Under the pieces are notes generated by a model. The model worked only from the letters and a program-made list of their open reading frames with translations. It did no database searches and was not told the origin of the DNA. From the human T2T-CHM13v2.0 reference genome, Homo sapiens, in NCBI RefSeq assembly GCF_009914755.1, contig NC_060934.1: a DNA stretch of 64,000 bases; one strand, written 5' to 3'. Positions 4,166 to 35,794 of this stretch are shown piece by piece. Within the stretch, counting starts at the first letter, position 1; each line of letters opens with the position of its first letter. A program made the translations under genes and the position numbers.

Positions 4166-7100
4166 ACCTGCCCCCTCAAACAAAAGGCCAATAAAAAACA
4201 AATTGACCAGTGGTATTCATCAGTCAAAGCACATGTGTTGTAAATTTGTGATGCCATGAATGTGAGCTCTCAGGAAAGAAGTTCTGACATGGCTCTTATG
4301 GAAACCTGAATAAAATACTGTACGTGGTCAGGCTGCATAAAGCACATAGTTCCCCTGGCATTTAGAGACAGCCCAAAAGGAGTCCGTGAGGAACCCAGGA
4401 CTGCAGTCAGACTGCTCATATCCGATTCTAAGAAGACCTGCACTCCTTTTTACCATTTTATTCCTAATGCATTTCCTGTTCAAATAAAAAATCCAACCAG
4501 AGGAAACAAGCAGTGTGGCTGGGATTAATTGTGCATGAGTCAAAGGCTCAGGCTGACCCTAAGGGTCACCACACTTCCTATTTTTCTGTTCTCAAAATCT
4601 GGTCTTGCTCGTGCAGGAGTTCCTCATATTGGCATTTCAGAAGTCTGGGAATGACCACTAGTTATTCTGGAGATACCAATCTAATGGAAAAAGTGATCCG
4701 TTCCTAAGGAATCACCTAGGATCCCAGGGGAATAGCTTGTATGACTCTTTCTGATGAAAAACAGAGACTTACGGTTCAGTAACAGGGCTATAAAACAGGG
4801 GCATTGAGGCAGAATATGGTGACCCACACCTTTAATCTCAGCAGTTTAGGAGGCCTAGGTGGGAGGATCACTTGAGCCCAGGAGTTTGAGGCCAGCTTGG
4901 GCAACAAATGAGACCCCATCTCCACAATAACAAAAAAAAAATTAGCTGGGCACAGTGGCACACACCTGTAGTCCCAGCTACTCAGGAGGCTGAGGCAGGA
5001 GGATTGCTTGAGCCTGGGAGGTCAAGGCTACAATGAGCAGTGATTGAGCCACTGCCCTCCAGCCTGGGTAACAGACTGAGACCCTGTCTCAAAAAATAAT
5101 AATAATCAAATGAATTTTAAAATAAAAAGGGTATTGAACTAAATAATCTCTAAAGTACTTTCCAGGTTCTAAGTTGTGTATGTTTTTGAAGAGTCACCTT
5201 TACTGTGTAGAAATAACCAATAAAATAGCAATCCATCAGGTAATAAAGCTTATCAAAACAGTTACCCTGTTGAAAATAGACAGGAAAACAAGCCTTATTA
5301 TATGGGTTCAGGGGATCTGGCAAAAAAGGAAAATAGCATAATTCTACAGCTTTAAGAAAGCCAGTTGATTTCAAAGCCAGCAGAGTGGGAGTTATGGCAC
5401 GCTTTTATTCTTCCCCTTCACCAAGAGGCCCATTGTGTCTGAACAGCAGTCAGTCACCAGTGCATTCCCTCTGTGTTCTCGATGGATGGCCTTAGGGCCA
5501 GAGGGGGAAAAATCACTTGTTGTTGTTTTTGTTTTTTTGTTTTTTTTTGAGACGGAGTCTCGCTCTATCACTCAGGCTGGAGTGCAGTGGCGCGATCTTG
5601 GCTCACTGCAAGCTCCGCCTCCCAGGTTCACACCGTTCTCCTGCCTCAGCCTCCGCAGCAGCTGGGACTACAGGCGCCCGCCACCATGCCCGGCTAAAGT
5701 TTTGTAATTTTAGTAGAGACAGGGTTTCACCGTGTTAGCCAGGATGGTCTCAATCTCCTGACCTCATGATCCCCCTGCCTCGGCGTCCCAAAGTGTTGGG
5801 ATTACAGGCGTGAGCCACTGCGCCCAGCCTTGTGATTTTTTAGGACCCCAACTTCTGACCAAGGGATAGGGAATCATAAGTTAAAGGAATGCAGAAATAC
5901 AGGACCAAGACCCTATTTTTGGGGAACACTGAAACCAAATAATATCAAATTTGTGAAAATGTTGGGCACCTCTCTCTAAGTCTAAAATCTTAGGTGCTGT
6001 ATAGTATATAAAAATACCAGTGTCAGAATTCATGATGTAGACAATAATTTCTTTTCTAGGCTATAGACAGCCAAGATGAATGTGAGCTTCTAAGGTTTTT
6101 TAGAGAAGCAAGCCTAGGTTTCAGATGGAGAGACAGTGTAACTGGAGTAAGGCTTTGGGGTTAATAATGATGCGGCTTCATAACAATAAAAACCTCCTTG
6201 TGTGGAATAGGGTCTCATATCATAGGTGAGATAATATTGGATAGTTGGAGAAAGGGAAGGTTATGACTGGATAATCATGAATGTAAGTTTGCTTTGGGGT
6301 GAAAGCATAAGTCTTTTGGTAGCTCAGTAAACCTCTACAGAGAGTGTCCAGAGCAAATTTATTTTTTATATATTTTGGGTAATAAGAATAGGATTACTGA
6401 GGAAGAAGCCATTAGCAGTAGGCTCCTTGTGCTTCATGGTAAAAGTTTGGCCCGGGGAGGGAGATGGTAAAACTGGTACATTTGTAATCTTGATTTGTCA
6501 TGAATCAATTGGTAGACTTGAGGAAATAATGCGTGGGGACAAGATTTCAAAGGGTGAGATGGTGGGAATTGGACCAGGGTCGTAGCATAGAGCAATTAGT
6601 AGAAGGAAGAGGCCAGGCACAGTGGCTCATACCTGAAATCCCAGCACTGTGGGAGACTCAGGCGGGTGGATCACTTGAGTCCAGGAGTTCGAGACCAGCC
6701 TGGGCAACATAGTGAGACCCTGTCAAAATAAAAATTAGGTATGGTGGCGCATGCCTGTAGTCTCAGCTACTTAGGAGGCTGAGGTGGGACAATCAGTTGA
6801 GCCCGGGTGGTCAAGGCTGCAGTAAGCCATGATTGCACCACTGCACTCAGCCTTGGTGATAGGGTGAGACCCTGTCTCCACAAAAAAAAAAAAAAAAAAA
6901 AAAAAAGAAAAGAAAAAGGGAAGAAATATTTTGAAAGAAGGAATTAGAAGAAAAAAGGAAATGAGCAGCAGAAGTCAGTTTGGAAAGCAGAATGTAATGA
7001 ATTTATTTGGGAGTTGGAGTTGAAGAATCATCATCATTAGCAAATGAACATCAAGTGCTTGCCATGCAAAAGGCATCATACCAGACTCTTGAGATACCAA

Positions 7101-8394
7101 AGAGAAGGTGGTACCTACCATTAAGGAACTGTAACCTACTTGGGAATATAAGACAGACTTAGTTTTTTTTTTCTTATTTACTTTATTTTACTTTTTAGAG
7201 ACAGGGCCTCTCTTTGTCACCCAGGTTGGAGTGCAGTGGTCCGATCATAGTTCACTGTAGCCTTGAACTGTTGGGCTCAAGCAGTCTTCCCACCTCAGCC
7301 TCACGAGTAGCTGAGACTACAGGCAATAGCCACCTTGCCTGAGTAGACTTAAATTTTTTGTTGTTGTTGTTGTTGAGATGGAGTTTTGCTCTCATCACAC
7401 AGGCTGGAGTGCAATGGTGCAACCTCAGCTCACTGCAACCTCTGCCTCCCAGGTTCAAGCCATTTTTCTGCCTCAGCCTCTCGAGTAGCTGGGGTTATAG
7501 GCATACACCCTGCCGCCCGGCTAATTTTGTATTCTTAGTAGACACAGGGTTTCACCATGTTGGCCAGGCTAGTCTTGAACTCCTGACCTGAGGTGATCCT
7601 GCGCACCTCGGCCTCCCGAAGTGCTGGGATTGCAGGCGTGAGCCACCGCACCTGGCCTAATTTTTTTTTAAATCAAGAGCATATAAAAATCAAGAGCATA
7701 AAAGATAACCCGGTTTTCCAATGTGCTTGACTATAAAATGACCCATAGGATTTTGCCAGGTGCTTTGCTACCCAGATCTTATTTTACCTAGGCCAGGTGC
7801 ATTCCTTGAACACCTCTGACTTGGGTACTGAGTGAGAAGGAAATTTTAACTATAAAAGTATAGGTAAGATTAACTTTAATCTAACTGTAAGATTAAAATA
7901 ATCTACAAGTGAATAGCTTATAATCAGATAATCAAGAGTTTGTTATAAAACAATTGATGATAAAATTAGAGTAATTTTTTCAAAATTAAATCATAAATCA
8001 TATAGAACTGAATTTTAATTTCATTTTTCCAGAAACATATACTGTGCTCTTATCCTTTCTTTACCTCAACTTCTTCTACAATAAGACAGATGCTAACTGT
8101 TCAGCTTACATTTTGTGAGGATAACCTGAAAATTGGTTATTTTCAAAAACAAAAGTGGTGATTATTGGTACCTTCTTTTAAGATCTCATTATAATATATT
8201 TTCAGGATAGGGACAGTTCAAGAAGGCCTCTGGAGAACATGATTGAACATTCATTGCCCATACCCTTCATCTCCAACAAAGAACCCTTTACTGAAGATTT
8301 CTTTTTTCTTTTTTTTTTTTTTTTGAGACACGGTCTCACTCTGTTGCCCAGGCCGGAGTGCAGTGGTGCCATCACAGCTCACTGCAGGCTCAAA
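4166..8394. repeat. Inverted segmental duplication, left arm (~4.23 kb; likely derived copy)
   Basis: Reverse complement of 31578-35794 across unique sequence and the same set of Alus. Mirrored ORFs appear in the track (4513..4707+ = 35253..35447-; 4328..4543- vs 35417..35632+). About 10 differences in the first ~630 bp by eye. Confidence 0.97.
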
Positions 8395-34500: not shown

Positions 34501-35794
34501 TGACTGACTGCTGTTCAGACACAATGGGCCTCTTGGTGAAGGGGAAGAATAAAAGCGTGCCATAACTCCCACTCTGCTGGCTTTGAAATCAACTGGCTTT
34601 CTTAAAGCTGTAGAATTATGCTATTTTCCTTGTTTTGTCAGATCCCCCTGAACCCATATAATAAGGCTTGTTTTCCTATCTATTTTCAACAGGATAACTG
34701 TTTTGATAAGCTTTATTACCTGATGGACTGCTATTTTATTGGTTATTTCTACACAGTAAAGGTGAATCTTGAAAAACATACACAATTTAGAACCTGGAAA
34801 GTACTTTAGAGATTATTTAGTTCAATACCCTTTTTATTTTAAAATTCATTTGATTATTATTATTTTTTGAGACAGGGTCTCAGTCTGTTACCCAGGCTGG
34901 AGGGCAGTGGCTCAATCACTGCTCATTGTAGCCTTGACCTCCCAGGCTCAAGCAATCCTCCTGCCTCAGCCTCCTGAGTAGCTGGGACTACAGGTGTGTG
35001 CCACTGTGCCCAGCTAATTTTTTTTTTTGTTATTGTGGAGATGGGGTCTCATTTGTTGCCCAAGCTGGCCTCAAACTCCTGGGCTCAAGTGATCCTCCCA
35101 CCTAGGCCTCCTAAACTGCTGAGATTAAAGGTGTGGGTCACCATATTCTGCCTCAATGCCCCTGTTTTATAGCCCTGTTACTGAACCGTAAGTCTCTGTT
35201 TTTCATCAGAAAGAGTCATACAAGCTATTCCCCTGGGGTCCTAGGTGATTCCTTAGGAACGGATCACTTTTTCCATTAGATTGGTATCTCCAGAATAACT
35301 AGTGGTCATTCCCAGACTTCTGAAATGCCAATATGAGGAACTCCTGCACGAGCAAGACCAGATTTTGAGAACAGAAAAATAGGAAGTGTGGTGACCCTTA
35401 GGGTCAGCCTGAGCCTTTGACTCATGCACAATTAATCCCAGCCACACTGCTTGCTTCCTCTGGTTGGATTTTTTATTTGAACAGGAAATGCATTAGGAAT
35501 AAAATGGTAAAAAGGAGTGCAGGTCTTCTTAGAATCAGATATGAGCAGTCTGACTGCAGTCCTGGGTTCCTCATGGACTCCTTTTGGGCTGTCTCTAAAT
35601 GCCAGGGGAACTATGTGCTTTATGCAGCCTGACCACATACAGTATTTTATTCAGGTTTCCATACGAGCCATGTCAGAACTTCTTTCCTGAGAGTTCACAT
35701 TCATGGCATCACAAATTTATAACACATGTGCTTTGACTGATGAATACCACTGGTCAATTTATTTTTTATTGGCCTGTTGTTTGAGGGGGCAGGT
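31578..35794. repeat. Inverted segmental duplication, right arm (~4.22 kb; likely ancestral copy)
   Basis: Reverse complement of 4166-8394. The Alu at its inner edge is intact here (31364-31660) but is cut at 8394 in the other arm. Confidence 0.97.

What the first reader, a model, noticed from the sequence alone, without database searches (positions are those of the whole stretch)
4166..35794. 4.2-kb inverted duplication brackets exactly one frame-symmetric DNMBP exon: a possible RNA-structure switch
Seen: arms 4166-8394 and 31578-35794 are ~98% identical reverse complements in the two introns flanking the 1992-nt exon, the only canonical coding exon in the 23.2-kb spacer. That exon is phase 1-1 and 664 codons long. 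Established: intronic reverse-complementary sequences promote exon looping and back-splicing and are ADAR substrates; they are usually ~300-bp Alu pairs, so this one is over ten times longer and near-perfect. Inference: the pre-mRNA could fold a ~4-kb stem that drives in-frame skipping. That would remove half of SH3-2, SH3-3, SH3-4 and the linker while keeping the downstream DH/BAR frame. Caveat: the distal arm is 18.6 kb past the donor, so the upstream intron may be spliced out before pairing can occur.
Basis: partly seen in the sequence, partly recalled or inferred. Interest (0 to 1): 0.85.

Follow-up and report, generated by a model that had tools for sequence, protein, structure and literature searches.

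The report
Inverted intron duplication around DNMBP exon
Two nearly identical 4.2-kb stretches in opposite orientation do sit in the introns on either side of the large DNMBP exon, but they look like a young, probably neutral duplication rather than a proven splicing switch.

Summary
Arms 4166-8394 and 31578-35794 are one colinear reverse-complement match: 74 mismatches in 4197 aligned bases (98.2%) plus 14 small indels. Three non-Alu pieces of the arm each occur exactly twice in the whole genome, so this is a two-copy inverted segmental duplication, not a transposon pair.

New here: the left arm is the derived copy. It carries a truncated Alu where the right arm has the intact one. It is also flanked by a 10-bp direct repeat.

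The exon facts hold: 1992 nt, phase 1-1, canonical splice sites, two complete SH3 domains plus part of SH3-2.

The switch idea is untested, and the geometry counts against it:
- The far arm lies 18.6 kb past the donor.
- Exon 5 lies about 46 kb past the donor.
- The splice sites look strong.
- Inverted Alu pairs sit 0.35 and 0.88 kb from the exon.
- Each arm holds internal inverted Alus.

Most likely this is a neutral young duplication that forms some long-range intronic dsRNA. It may add a little to circularisation, and it is a latent substrate for an exon-flipping inversion. Interest is moderate to low.

The parts
4166..8394 (.). Left arm, 4229 nt. It is the derived inverted copy, inserted in DNMBP intron 4, 18,612 nt downstream of the exon-4 donor in the pre-mRNA.
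   Evidence: for the alignment; its Alu at the inner edge is cut off at 8394; it is flanked by a 10-bp direct repeat; it has no ATG-initiated ORF of 100 aa or more.
31578..35794 (.). Right arm, 4217 nt. It is the parental segment in DNMBP intron 3, 2,579 nt upstream of the exon-4 acceptor and 5,102 nt downstream of the exon-3 donor.
   Evidence: homology starts inside an intact full-length Alu that continues outside the arm.
4152..4161 (+). First copy of the 10-bp direct repeat CATGTTTCTA, which looks like a target-site duplication, 4 nt before the left arm.
   Evidence: a shared word of 10 bp or more in the flanks was seen in 0.29% of 20,000 random placements. The right arm's flanks share only 6 bp.
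8400..8409 (+). Second copy of the 10-bp direct repeat, 5 nt after the left arm.
31362..31664 (+). Full-length Alu that straddles the inner edge of the right arm. Only its last ~90 nt are inside the duplicated segment.
   Evidence: Alu positions 1-301; the sequence continues as Alu beyond 31578.
8304..8394 (-). Truncated copy of that Alu at the inner edge of the left arm, followed by unrelated unique sequence.
   Evidence: the flank 8400-8499 is single-copy in the genome.
27007..28998 (-). DNMBP exon 4, 1992 nt, phase 1-1. It is the only DNMBP exon between the arms.
   Evidence: pyrimidine-rich 3' splice site ending TTTAG, 5' splice site GAG|GTAAGT, open frame; two complete SH3 domains.
25829..26129 (-). 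Nearest Alu downstream of the exon that is inverted relative to the upstream Alus, 877 nt from the donor.
   Evidence: duplex energy of -382 to -417 kcal/mol with the upstream Alus.
29348..29934 (+). Two tandem Alus starting 349 nt upstream of the acceptor. They are partners for the downstream inverted Alu.
27467..30791 (+). The three 3' exons of DNMBP-AS1 (27467-27625, 28275-28384, 28582-30791), inside the spacer on the opposite strand.
   Evidence: Hub annotation; canonical AG/GT sites and an ATTAAA about 24 nt before the end (position re-derived by hand; the offset printed was wrong).
1403..2702 (-). Alternative first exon of DNMBP, downstream of both arms. Its ATG-initiated ORF leaves the exon in phase 1.
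   Evidence: no AG upstream, a GT donor downstream; the ORF from 2558 to the donor at 1403 is 1156 nt, which is 385 codons plus 1 nt.

Best explanation
This is a young, two-copy, intragenic inverted segmental duplication. A 4.2-kb piece of DNMBP intron 3 (the right arm) was copied in reverse orientation into intron 4 (the left arm), 23 kb away on the other side of exon 4. The copy left a 10-bp duplication of the target site. It is most likely selectively neutral.

Inferred consequences:
(a) In the fraction of pre-mRNAs where intron 3 is still present when the far arm is transcribed, or in trans between an excised intron and a nascent transcript, the arms pair into very long intronic dsRNA that ADAR enzymes would edit.
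(b) This pairing adds at most a minor push towards back-splicing or skipping of exon 4. The close-by inverted Alu pairs already favour those events.
(c) At the DNA level the arms are a substrate for homologous recombination that would invert the 23-kb spacer and flip exon 4.

It is not a dedicated splicing switch.

Shown: the duplication, its copy number, its polarity and the exon geometry. Inferred: every RNA-level and recombination consequence.
For: Structure: searches give one colinear 4.2-kb inverted match, 98.24% identical, with no indel over 10 nt.

Copy number: three of three non-Alu pieces tested hit exactly two places in the 3.1-Gb genome, and those places are the two arms.

Polarity: the right arm's edge lies inside an intact Alu, which is truncated in the left arm. 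A 10-bp direct repeat flanks the left arm only (P about 0.003).

Age: Jukes-Cantor divergence is 1.78% over all sites and 1.36% at non-CpG sites. It is spread evenly (permutation p 0.07), so there is no clear gene conversion. No Alu has been inserted in either arm since the copy.

No sign of selected content: no Rfam family, no ATG-initiated ORF of 100 aa or more in the left arm, and no CTCF-like motif in either arm.

Against a dedicated switch:
- The far arm is 18,612 nt past the donor, and the inferred exon 5 is 46 kb past it.
- The 3' and 5' splice sites are consensus-like.
- Cross-exon inverted Alu pairs lie 349 and 877 nt from the exon, with -382 to -417 kcal/mol.
- Inverted Alu pairs inside each arm have -350 to -390 kcal/mol and can fold first.
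- Loop-out skipping is linked to short exons, weak 3' sites and shorter downstream introns within 5-kb windows (PMC13019027, sections read).
- Most known long-range RNA contacts span less than 10 kb (PMC11838218, passages).
- Dnmbp circRNAs are reported in rat and mouse, so circularisation of the gene does not need the arms (passages).

Recombination potential: there are 5 perfect tracts over 200 bp and 13 of 100 bp or more.
Against: Neutrality is assumed, not shown. There are no outgroup genomes, population data or RNA data here. The thermodynamic drive for arm pairing is enormous: about 4.2 kb at roughly -1.8 to -2 kcal/mol per nt. Mouse Sry shows that very long inverted repeats can dominate splicing of the exon they enclose. 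An exonic DNMBP circRNA exists on human arrays, but its exon content is unknown. Barak et al. report that long, nearly perfect inverted duplicates are depleted even in pre-mRNAs, so the persistence of this one might call for an explanation. Calling the left arm the copy rests on parsimony from one junction plus the flanking repeat.
Confidence: 0.6

Rival explanations
1. The two arms pair in the DNMBP pre-mRNA into a ~4-kb stem that loops out exon 4 and drives regulated in-frame skipping. The product would be a 913-residue protein without SH3-3, SH3-4 and the linker.
For: The arms flank exactly one exon, and that exon is phase 1-1. Both arms lie in the same transcription unit. Duplex energy is very high. 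Loop-out skipping by inverted intronic repeats is an established mechanism (PMC13019027). Reverse-complementary matches promote both back-splicing and skipping (PMC8330042, title in the search listing only).
Against: Intron 3 can be removed as soon as exon 4 is made. The far arm starts 18.6 kb later, and the exon-5 acceptor appears about 46 kb later. The exon is 1992 nt with strong sites, the opposite of the profile of skippable exons. Closer inverted Alus and Alus inside the arms compete for pairing. The search for DNMBP with skipping found 18 papers. I opened two of the 13 listed and neither mentions skipping of this exon. The SH3-less form already comes from an internal promoter.
Confidence: 0.08
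2. A Sry-like circle driver. The arms measurably raise back-splicing of exon 4 into a 1992-nt circular RNA, above what the nearby Alus achieve.
For: In mouse Sry, inverted repeats of more than 15 kb flank the single exon and are required for circularisation (PMC4201285, passages). An exonic DNMBP circRNA, hsa_circRNA_404798, is detected on arrays. Large single exons flanked by long introns are typical circle sources; this last point is recalled.
Against: The exon content of the reported circle is not given. Dnmbp circles also occur in rat and mouse. Inverted repeats of 30-40 nt close to the exon are enough, and longer repeats can even inhibit circularisation. Inverted Alus lie 349 and 877 nt from the exon. 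The far arm is 18.6 kb away.
Confidence: 0.2
3. An inversion substrate that matters. Recombination between the arms produces a segregating or recurrent 27-kb inversion that flips exon 4 and places the DNMBP-AS1 3' exons in sense. That would be a loss-of-function allele invisible to exome sequencing.
For: The arms are 4.2 kb at 98% identity with five perfect tracts over 200 bp, and they are 23 kb apart. That fits the class of inverted duplications tested as inversion candidates: 1-50 kb long and less than 250 kb apart. In an inverted allele three AS1 exons with canonical sites and a polyA signal would face the DNMBP direction, and the frame would stop after 4 codons. Biallelic DNMBP loss causes infantile cataract (review PMC11202810, passages).
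Against: Only 6 of 319 (1.9%) such otherwise unflagged inverted duplication pairs were polymorphic in 54 people. DNMBP is absent from the supplements I could search: Aguado 2014, 6 files, and Giner-Delgado 2019, 12 of 14 files. The even spread of divergence gives no sign of exchange between the arms. This genome has the standard orientation.
Confidence: 0.07
4. Not a real duplication: either two independent insertions of one transposon family or an assembly artefact.
For: About 30% of each arm is Alu.
Against: Three non-Alu pieces have exactly two genomic copies each. The same four Alus appear in the same order in both arms with no large indel. The 74 substitutions and 14 indels between the arms are not what a collapsed or duplicated assembly would give.
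Confidence: 0.01

Closest known systems
Mouse Sry locus: inverted repeats of more than 15 kb flanking the single exon that circularises (Capel 1993 and Dubin 1995, as described in PMC4201285)
   Same: Very long, near-perfect inverted duplications, not transposons, lie on both sides of one exon with consensus splice sites. Both are transcribed in the same precursor.
   Different: In Sry the repeats lie immediately around the exon and their deletion abolishes the circle. Here one arm is 2.6 kb and the other 18.6 kb from the exon, inside a multi-exon gene whose linear splicing competes. No junction data exist.
Inverted Alu pairs that drive loop-out exon skipping or back-splicing (TBXT and genome-wide, PMC13019027; ZKSCAN1 and HIPK3, PMC4201285)
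   Same: Reverse-complementary intronic sequence lies on both sides of an exon, and the predicted stem encloses that exon.
   Different: The arms are about 14 times longer than an Alu and 98% matched, but far more distant than the 5-kb or smaller windows in which enrichment was shown. The enclosed exon is long and strong rather than short and weak.
Inverted segmental duplications that mediate polymorphic inversions by non-allelic homologous recombination (PMC3961182, PMC13629690)
   Same: The size, identity and spacing fit the class that was screened: 1-50 kb long, less than 250 kb apart, at least 90% identity, not made of transposons only.
   Different: No evidence of two orientations. An inversion here would break a coding gene.
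Long, nearly perfect intronic inverted duplicates that are ADAR targets (Barak et al. 2020, PMC7006430, for example the KLHDC1 intron)
   Same: Over 300 bp, over 96% identity, both arms within one RefSeq pre-mRNA.
   Different: It is not among the 197 structures of their Table S8, searched as held using coordinate prefixes I recalled. Its loop of 23 kb is much larger than the examples shown there.

Membership tests
Inverted segmental duplication | At least 1 kb long and at least 90% identical | tested here: met
   4229 and 4217 nt. Identity is 98.24% without gaps and 97.06% with gaps.
Inverted segmental duplication | Not made only of high-copy repeats; low copy number | tested here: met
   2923 of 4197 aligned positions are non-Alu. 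Three of three non-Alu pieces have exactly 2 genomic copies. Three further non-Alu intervals were not searched.
Inverted segmental duplication | Copies in opposite orientation on one chromosome | tested here: met
Repeat-driven exon loop-out or back-splicing (inverted-Alu or Sry type) | Complementary sequence in both introns flanking the exon | tested here: met
   The arms lie in intron 3 and intron 4 (hub annotation).
Repeat-driven exon loop-out or back-splicing (inverted-Alu or Sry type) | Repeats close to the splice sites (enrichment shown for windows of 5 kb or less) | tested here: not met
   The upstream arm is 2,579 nt away, but the downstream arm is 18,612 nt away.
Repeat-driven exon loop-out or back-splicing (inverted-Alu or Sry type) | An observed skip or back-splice junction that depends on the repeats | not testable with these tools
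   No RNA-seq access. The literature gives only an exonic DNMBP circRNA with no coordinates.
Repeat-driven exon loop-out or back-splicing (inverted-Alu or Sry type) | Weak exon definition (short exon, weak 3' site, short downstream intron) | tested here: not met
   The exon is 1992 nt, with a pyrimidine-rich 3' site and a GAG|GTAAGT donor. The downstream intron is about 46 kb. Splice-site strength was judged by eye, not scored.
Inversion polymorphism mediated by inverted repeats | An inverted repeat pair with long tracts of perfect identity | tested here: met
   5 tracts over 200 bp, the longest 241 bp.
Inversion polymorphism mediated by inverted repeats | Both orientations present in the population | not testable with these tools
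   Not found in the searchable supplements. The key table (PMC13629690, Table S1) and the Porubsky 2022 and Ebert 2021 data were not available.
ADAR-edited long intramolecular dsRNA | Both arms in one transcript and able to pair | tested here: met
   Hub annotation.
ADAR-edited long intramolecular dsRNA | Clustered A-to-G mismatches in RNA reads over unique arm sequence | not testable with these tools
   No RNA data. Zero papers hold both DNMBP and A-to-I.
L1-mediated retrocopy (considered for the origin of the left arm) | A poly(A) tail next to one target-site duplication | tested here: not met
   The arm ends read ...CTCAAA|CAATC and GATC|ACCTGCC, with no A or T run.
L1-mediated retrocopy (considered for the origin of the left arm) | Target-site duplication | tested here: met
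   A 10-bp direct repeat. It does not begin with the A-rich endonuclease site; that consensus is recalled.

The most novel reading that the evidence does not exclude
The arms do pair in vivo, giving one of the longest intramolecular dsRNAs in any human pre-mRNA: about 4.2 kb, where a genome-wide scan treats 5 kb as well above any known case. This pairing, specific to the apes that carry the copy, measurably raises exon-4 circularisation or in-frame skipping of the SH3 module. That would make DNMBP a natural human counterpart of mouse Sry and a built-in test of how far apart complementary introns can act.
Probability: 0.12. Interest if true: 0.7.

Novelty: new member of a known kind. Interest (0 to 1): 0.35.

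Why it matters
If the arms pair, this locus would test the distance limit of repeat-driven splicing (an 18.6-kb offset and a 23-kb loop). It would also provide an unusually long endogenous dsRNA for studies of ADAR, helicases and dsRNA sensors. Apes with and without the copy would serve as natural controls. Independently, the arms are a plausible hidden route to DNMBP loss-of-function alleles by an exon-flipping inversion. Exome and short-read tests would miss such alleles in recessive infantile cataract. If the arms turn out inert, the locus is a useful negative example: thermodynamic potential alone does not make an RNA switch.

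Tried and rejected
1. Transposon pair or assembly artefact: rejected.

2. Gene conversion between the arms: the dispersion of non-CpG mismatches (1.54, permutation p 0.07) and the longest identical tract (242 columns, p 0.07) are not significant.

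3. Retrocopy origin: no poly(A) at either end. The substitution pattern shows no A-to-G excess on the DNMBP sense strand (18 against 17). The reverse-strand asymmetry (18 against 7, uncorrected p 0.04) is not concentrated in Alus.

4. A chromatin-loop idea, in which duplicated CTCF sites face each other: 3 matches to a recalled core motif at one mismatch in the window, none in the arms, and not above chance (21 of 100 shuffles gave 3 or more).

5. Hidden RNA gene or ORF in the arms: no Rfam family at gathering score in 1-42000, and no ATG-initiated ORF of 100 aa or more in the left arm. The right arm was not scanned for ORFs.

6. An empty-site check using paralogous repeats: both flanks of the left arm are single-copy, so there was nothing to compare.

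7. Literature: no paper ties DNMBP to an inversion (4 papers hold both words, 3 were listed, and I opened one, in which the two words are unrelated). None ties it to A-to-I editing (0 papers). One search listed none with DNMBP among the top 25 of 5,886. A DNMBP circle is named only in one mouse paper. For skipping, 18 papers hold both words and I opened two, neither about this exon.

8. The prior-art search for circRNAs driven by segmental duplications listed 12 of 256 papers, none containing the term 'segmental duplication'.

9. Barak 2020 Table S8: no row matched DNMBP or coordinate prefixes near the locus. The hg19 and hg38 coordinates I used for those prefixes are recalled, so this negative is soft.

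10. Not available: earlier scan findings, the Porubsky 2022 and Ebert 2021 papers, and the supplements of PMC13629690, which I did not request because the tool text says papers added after August 2026 have none held.

Full report
**Observation.** The inverted duplication is real and lies at the stated coordinates.
- The repeat finder lists colinear inverted blocks from 4163-4941/35019-35797 through 7943-8314/31648-32019, at 94-99% complementarity.
- blastn joins them into a single alignment, 4166-8394 against 35794-31578: 4249 columns, 97.06% identity counting gaps.
- A global alignment gives arm lengths of 4229 and 4217 nt. There are 74 mismatches in 4197 aligned positions (98.24%): 60 transitions, 14 transversions, and 19 in CpG context. 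There are 14 indels totalling 52 nt, none longer than 10 nt.
- The spacer is 23,183 nt.

**What the arms are made of.** I used an Alu from the window itself (26254-26558) as a probe.
- The left arm holds Alus at 4818-5105 (+), 5528-5830 (-), 6609-6899 (+) and 7354-7658 (-), plus a fragment at 8304-8369 (-).
- The right arm holds the mirror set.
- Alu accounts for 1274 of the 4197 aligned positions; 2923 are non-Alu.
- Three non-Alu pieces (5990-6600, 4166-4810, 7670-8295) each hit exactly two places in the 3.1-Gb genome, and those are the two arms.

So this is a two-copy segmental duplication, not a pair of transposon insertions. Nothing in the arms looks like a selected element. There is no Rfam family at gathering score in 1-42000, no ATG-initiated ORF of 100 aa or more in the left arm, and no CTCF-like core in either arm (the motif is recalled).

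- At the inner edge, the right arm's homology begins at 31578, inside a full-length Alu (31362-31664) that continues as Alu outside the arm. In the left arm the same Alu stops abruptly at 8394 and is followed by unrelated sequence.
- The left arm is bracketed by a 10-bp direct repeat, CATGTTTCTA, at 4152-4161 and 8400-8409, with 4 and 5 nt of filler.
- In 20,000 random placements of a 4229-nt segment in this window, only 0.29% had flanks sharing 10 bp or more. The right arm's flanks share 6 bp, the typical chance value.
- Both flanks of the left arm are single-copy.

The simplest reading is that 4.2 kb of intron 3 was copied in reverse into intron 4 with a short duplication of the target. There is no poly(A) or poly(T) at either end, so an L1-type retrocopy is unlikely. 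A DNA-level templated insertion, meaning a template switch with return 10 bp upstream, is my inference and is not shown.

**Age.**
- Jukes-Cantor divergence is 1.78% over all sites and 1.36% at non-CpG sites.
- Alu and non-Alu parts agree at non-CpG sites (1.42% against 1.32%).
- Mismatches are not significantly clustered: index of dispersion 1.54, permutation p 0.07; longest identical tract p 0.07.

There is therefore no clear trace of gene conversion. Compared with recalled ape divergences, 1.8% between paralogues points to an origin around the African great-ape ancestor. This is a prediction, not a result, because no primate genome was available.

**The exon and the gene geometry.**
- On the minus strand, exon 27007-28998 is 1992 nt. 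Its 3' splice site is preceded by a pyrimidine-rich tract (...CTCCTCTTTTCTTTAG|G) and its donor is GAG|GTAAGT.
- The 268 coding nt before it put it in phase 1, and 1992 = 664 x 3 keeps phase 1. The frame is open.
- Pfam finds two complete SH3 domains in the exon. The translation shows that the exon 3/4 junction falls inside the second SH3 domain.
- Intron 3 is 11,898 nt. The right arm sits 5,102 nt after the exon-3 donor and 2,579 nt before the exon-4 acceptor. The left arm starts 18,612 nt after the exon-4 donor.
- A genome search with the RhoGEF model found the start of the DNMBP DH domain at genomic 100792741-100792833. In the fetched DNA, the phase-1 acceptor with the best pyrimidine tract lies at genomic 100792934, window -19066. 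If this is exon 5, which is my inference, intron 4 is about 46.1 kb.
- The extra RefSeq exon 1403-2702 has no AG upstream and a GT donor, so it is an alternative first exon. It holds an ATG-initiated ORF that leaves the exon in phase 1 (1156 nt), in frame with exon 5. An isoform lacking the N-terminal SH3 module is thus made from a promoter downstream of both arms, with no need for skipping.

**Would the stem act on splicing?**

Thermodynamically the arms are far ahead:
- Pieces of 300 nt give -530 to -620 kcal/mol.
- The best cross-exon Alu pairs give -382 to -417 kcal/mol.
- Inverted Alu pairs inside a single arm give -350 to -390 kcal/mol.

Kinetically the arms are handicapped:
- The right arm is transcribed first, then has to wait for about 23 kb of further transcription. 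During that time its own inverted Alus, and the inverted Alu just outside it (35922-36205, -451 kcal/mol), can fold.
- Intron 3 can be spliced as soon as exon 4 is defined. Skipping also needs the exon-5 acceptor, about 48 kb after the exon-4 acceptor.
- With recalled elongation rates of 2-4 kb per minute, that is 5-12 minutes to the far arm and 12-24 minutes to exon 5.
- Alus in opposite orientation already sit 349 nt upstream (29348-29934, +) and 877 nt downstream (25829-26129, -) of the exon.

The literature I read agrees:
- Enrichment of inverted Alu pairs around skippable exons was shown for windows up to 5 kb. Skippable exons are shorter, their 3' sites are weak, and their downstream introns are shorter (PMC13019027: abstract, introduction and first results section).
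- Repeats of 30-40 nt near the exon are enough for circularisation, and longer repeats can inhibit it (PMC4201285, passages).
- A genome-wide dsRNA scan used 10-kb windows, because most known long-range contacts are shorter than that (PMC11838218, passages).

Points in favour of some effect:
- In mouse Sry, inverted repeats of more than 15 kb drive circularisation of the enclosed exon.
- An exonic DNMBP circRNA is on human arrays (tables seen). Its exon content is not stated, and Dnmbp circles are also reported in rat and mouse.

**DNA-level reading.** The arms have five perfect tracts over 200 bp and thirteen of 100 bp or more. They match the class screened as inversion candidates: inverted duplications 1-50 kb long and less than 250 kb apart.
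- An inversion would flip exon 4.
- It would also turn the three DNMBP-AS1 3' exons into the DNMBP direction. These have canonical AG/GT sites and an ATTAAA about 24 nt before the annotated end.
- If those exons were spliced in, the frame would stop after 4 codons. This is a thought experiment.

The prior is low: only 6 of 319 such pairs (1.9%) were polymorphic in 54 people. DNMBP does not appear in the supplements I could search. Biallelic DNMBP loss causes infantile cataract (review passages), so a rare inversion allele would matter clinically.

**Comparison and novelty.** Functionally this is an intronic reverse-complementary pair of the Sry or inverted-Alu kind. Structurally it is an inverted segmental duplication.
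- It meets the structural definitions of both.
- It fails the proximity and weak-exon features that characterise known loop-out cases.
- The defining functional features (junctions, editing, two orientations) could not be tested here.
- I found no paper describing this duplication or a role for it.
- It is also not in Table S8 of Barak et al. 2020 as held. That negative is soft, because the coordinate prefixes I used were recalled.

**Verdict.** The splicing-switch interpretation is not excluded, but I consider it unlikely (about 8%). Some pairing with ADAR editing is plausible, and a small contribution to circularisation is possible (about 20%). Novelty: a new member of a known kind. Interest: 0.35.

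Noticed in passing
window 1403-2702 (- strand): The extra RefSeq exon is an alternative first exon. It holds an ATG-initiated ORF from 2558 to the donor at 1403: 385 codons plus 1 nt, so phase 1, in frame with the inferred exon 5. It would give DNMBP a different ~385-residue N-terminus in place of the four SH3 domains. The ORF was not searched against any family library.
   Followed up: partly
arms 4166-8394 and 31578-35794: Transition asymmetry between the arms: left C against right T at 18 sites, and the reverse at 7 (uncorrected binomial p 0.04). The excess is mostly in non-Alu, non-CpG positions (11 against 2). No explanation; it may be chance.
   Followed up: partly
window 26254-26865: Two head-to-tail Alus (period 305, 81% matches) lie 142 nt downstream of the exon-4 donor. 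They have the same orientation as the four Alus just upstream of the exon, so they cannot pair with them.
   Followed up: no
window 27467-30791 (+ strand): The 3' exons of DNMBP-AS1 overlap DNMBP exon 4 antisense. Mature sense and antisense RNAs could pair over exonic sequence independently of the arms. The lncRNA ends at 30791, 787 nt before the right arm, so its precursor carries only the left arm.
   Followed up: no
window 6001-7000 and 33001-34000: There is a strong strand-asymmetric G/C skew (+0.32 and -0.31) in the central part of the arms. It is not a tandem repeat: TRF finds only the Alu A-tail there.
   Followed up: partly
L009 (genomic chr10:100792500-100793200): The inferred exon 5 begins ...TTCTAG|AAATGACG. 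The first full codon after the split one is ATG, which fits my recalled note that a short DNMBP isoform starts at about residue 755.
   Followed up: partly
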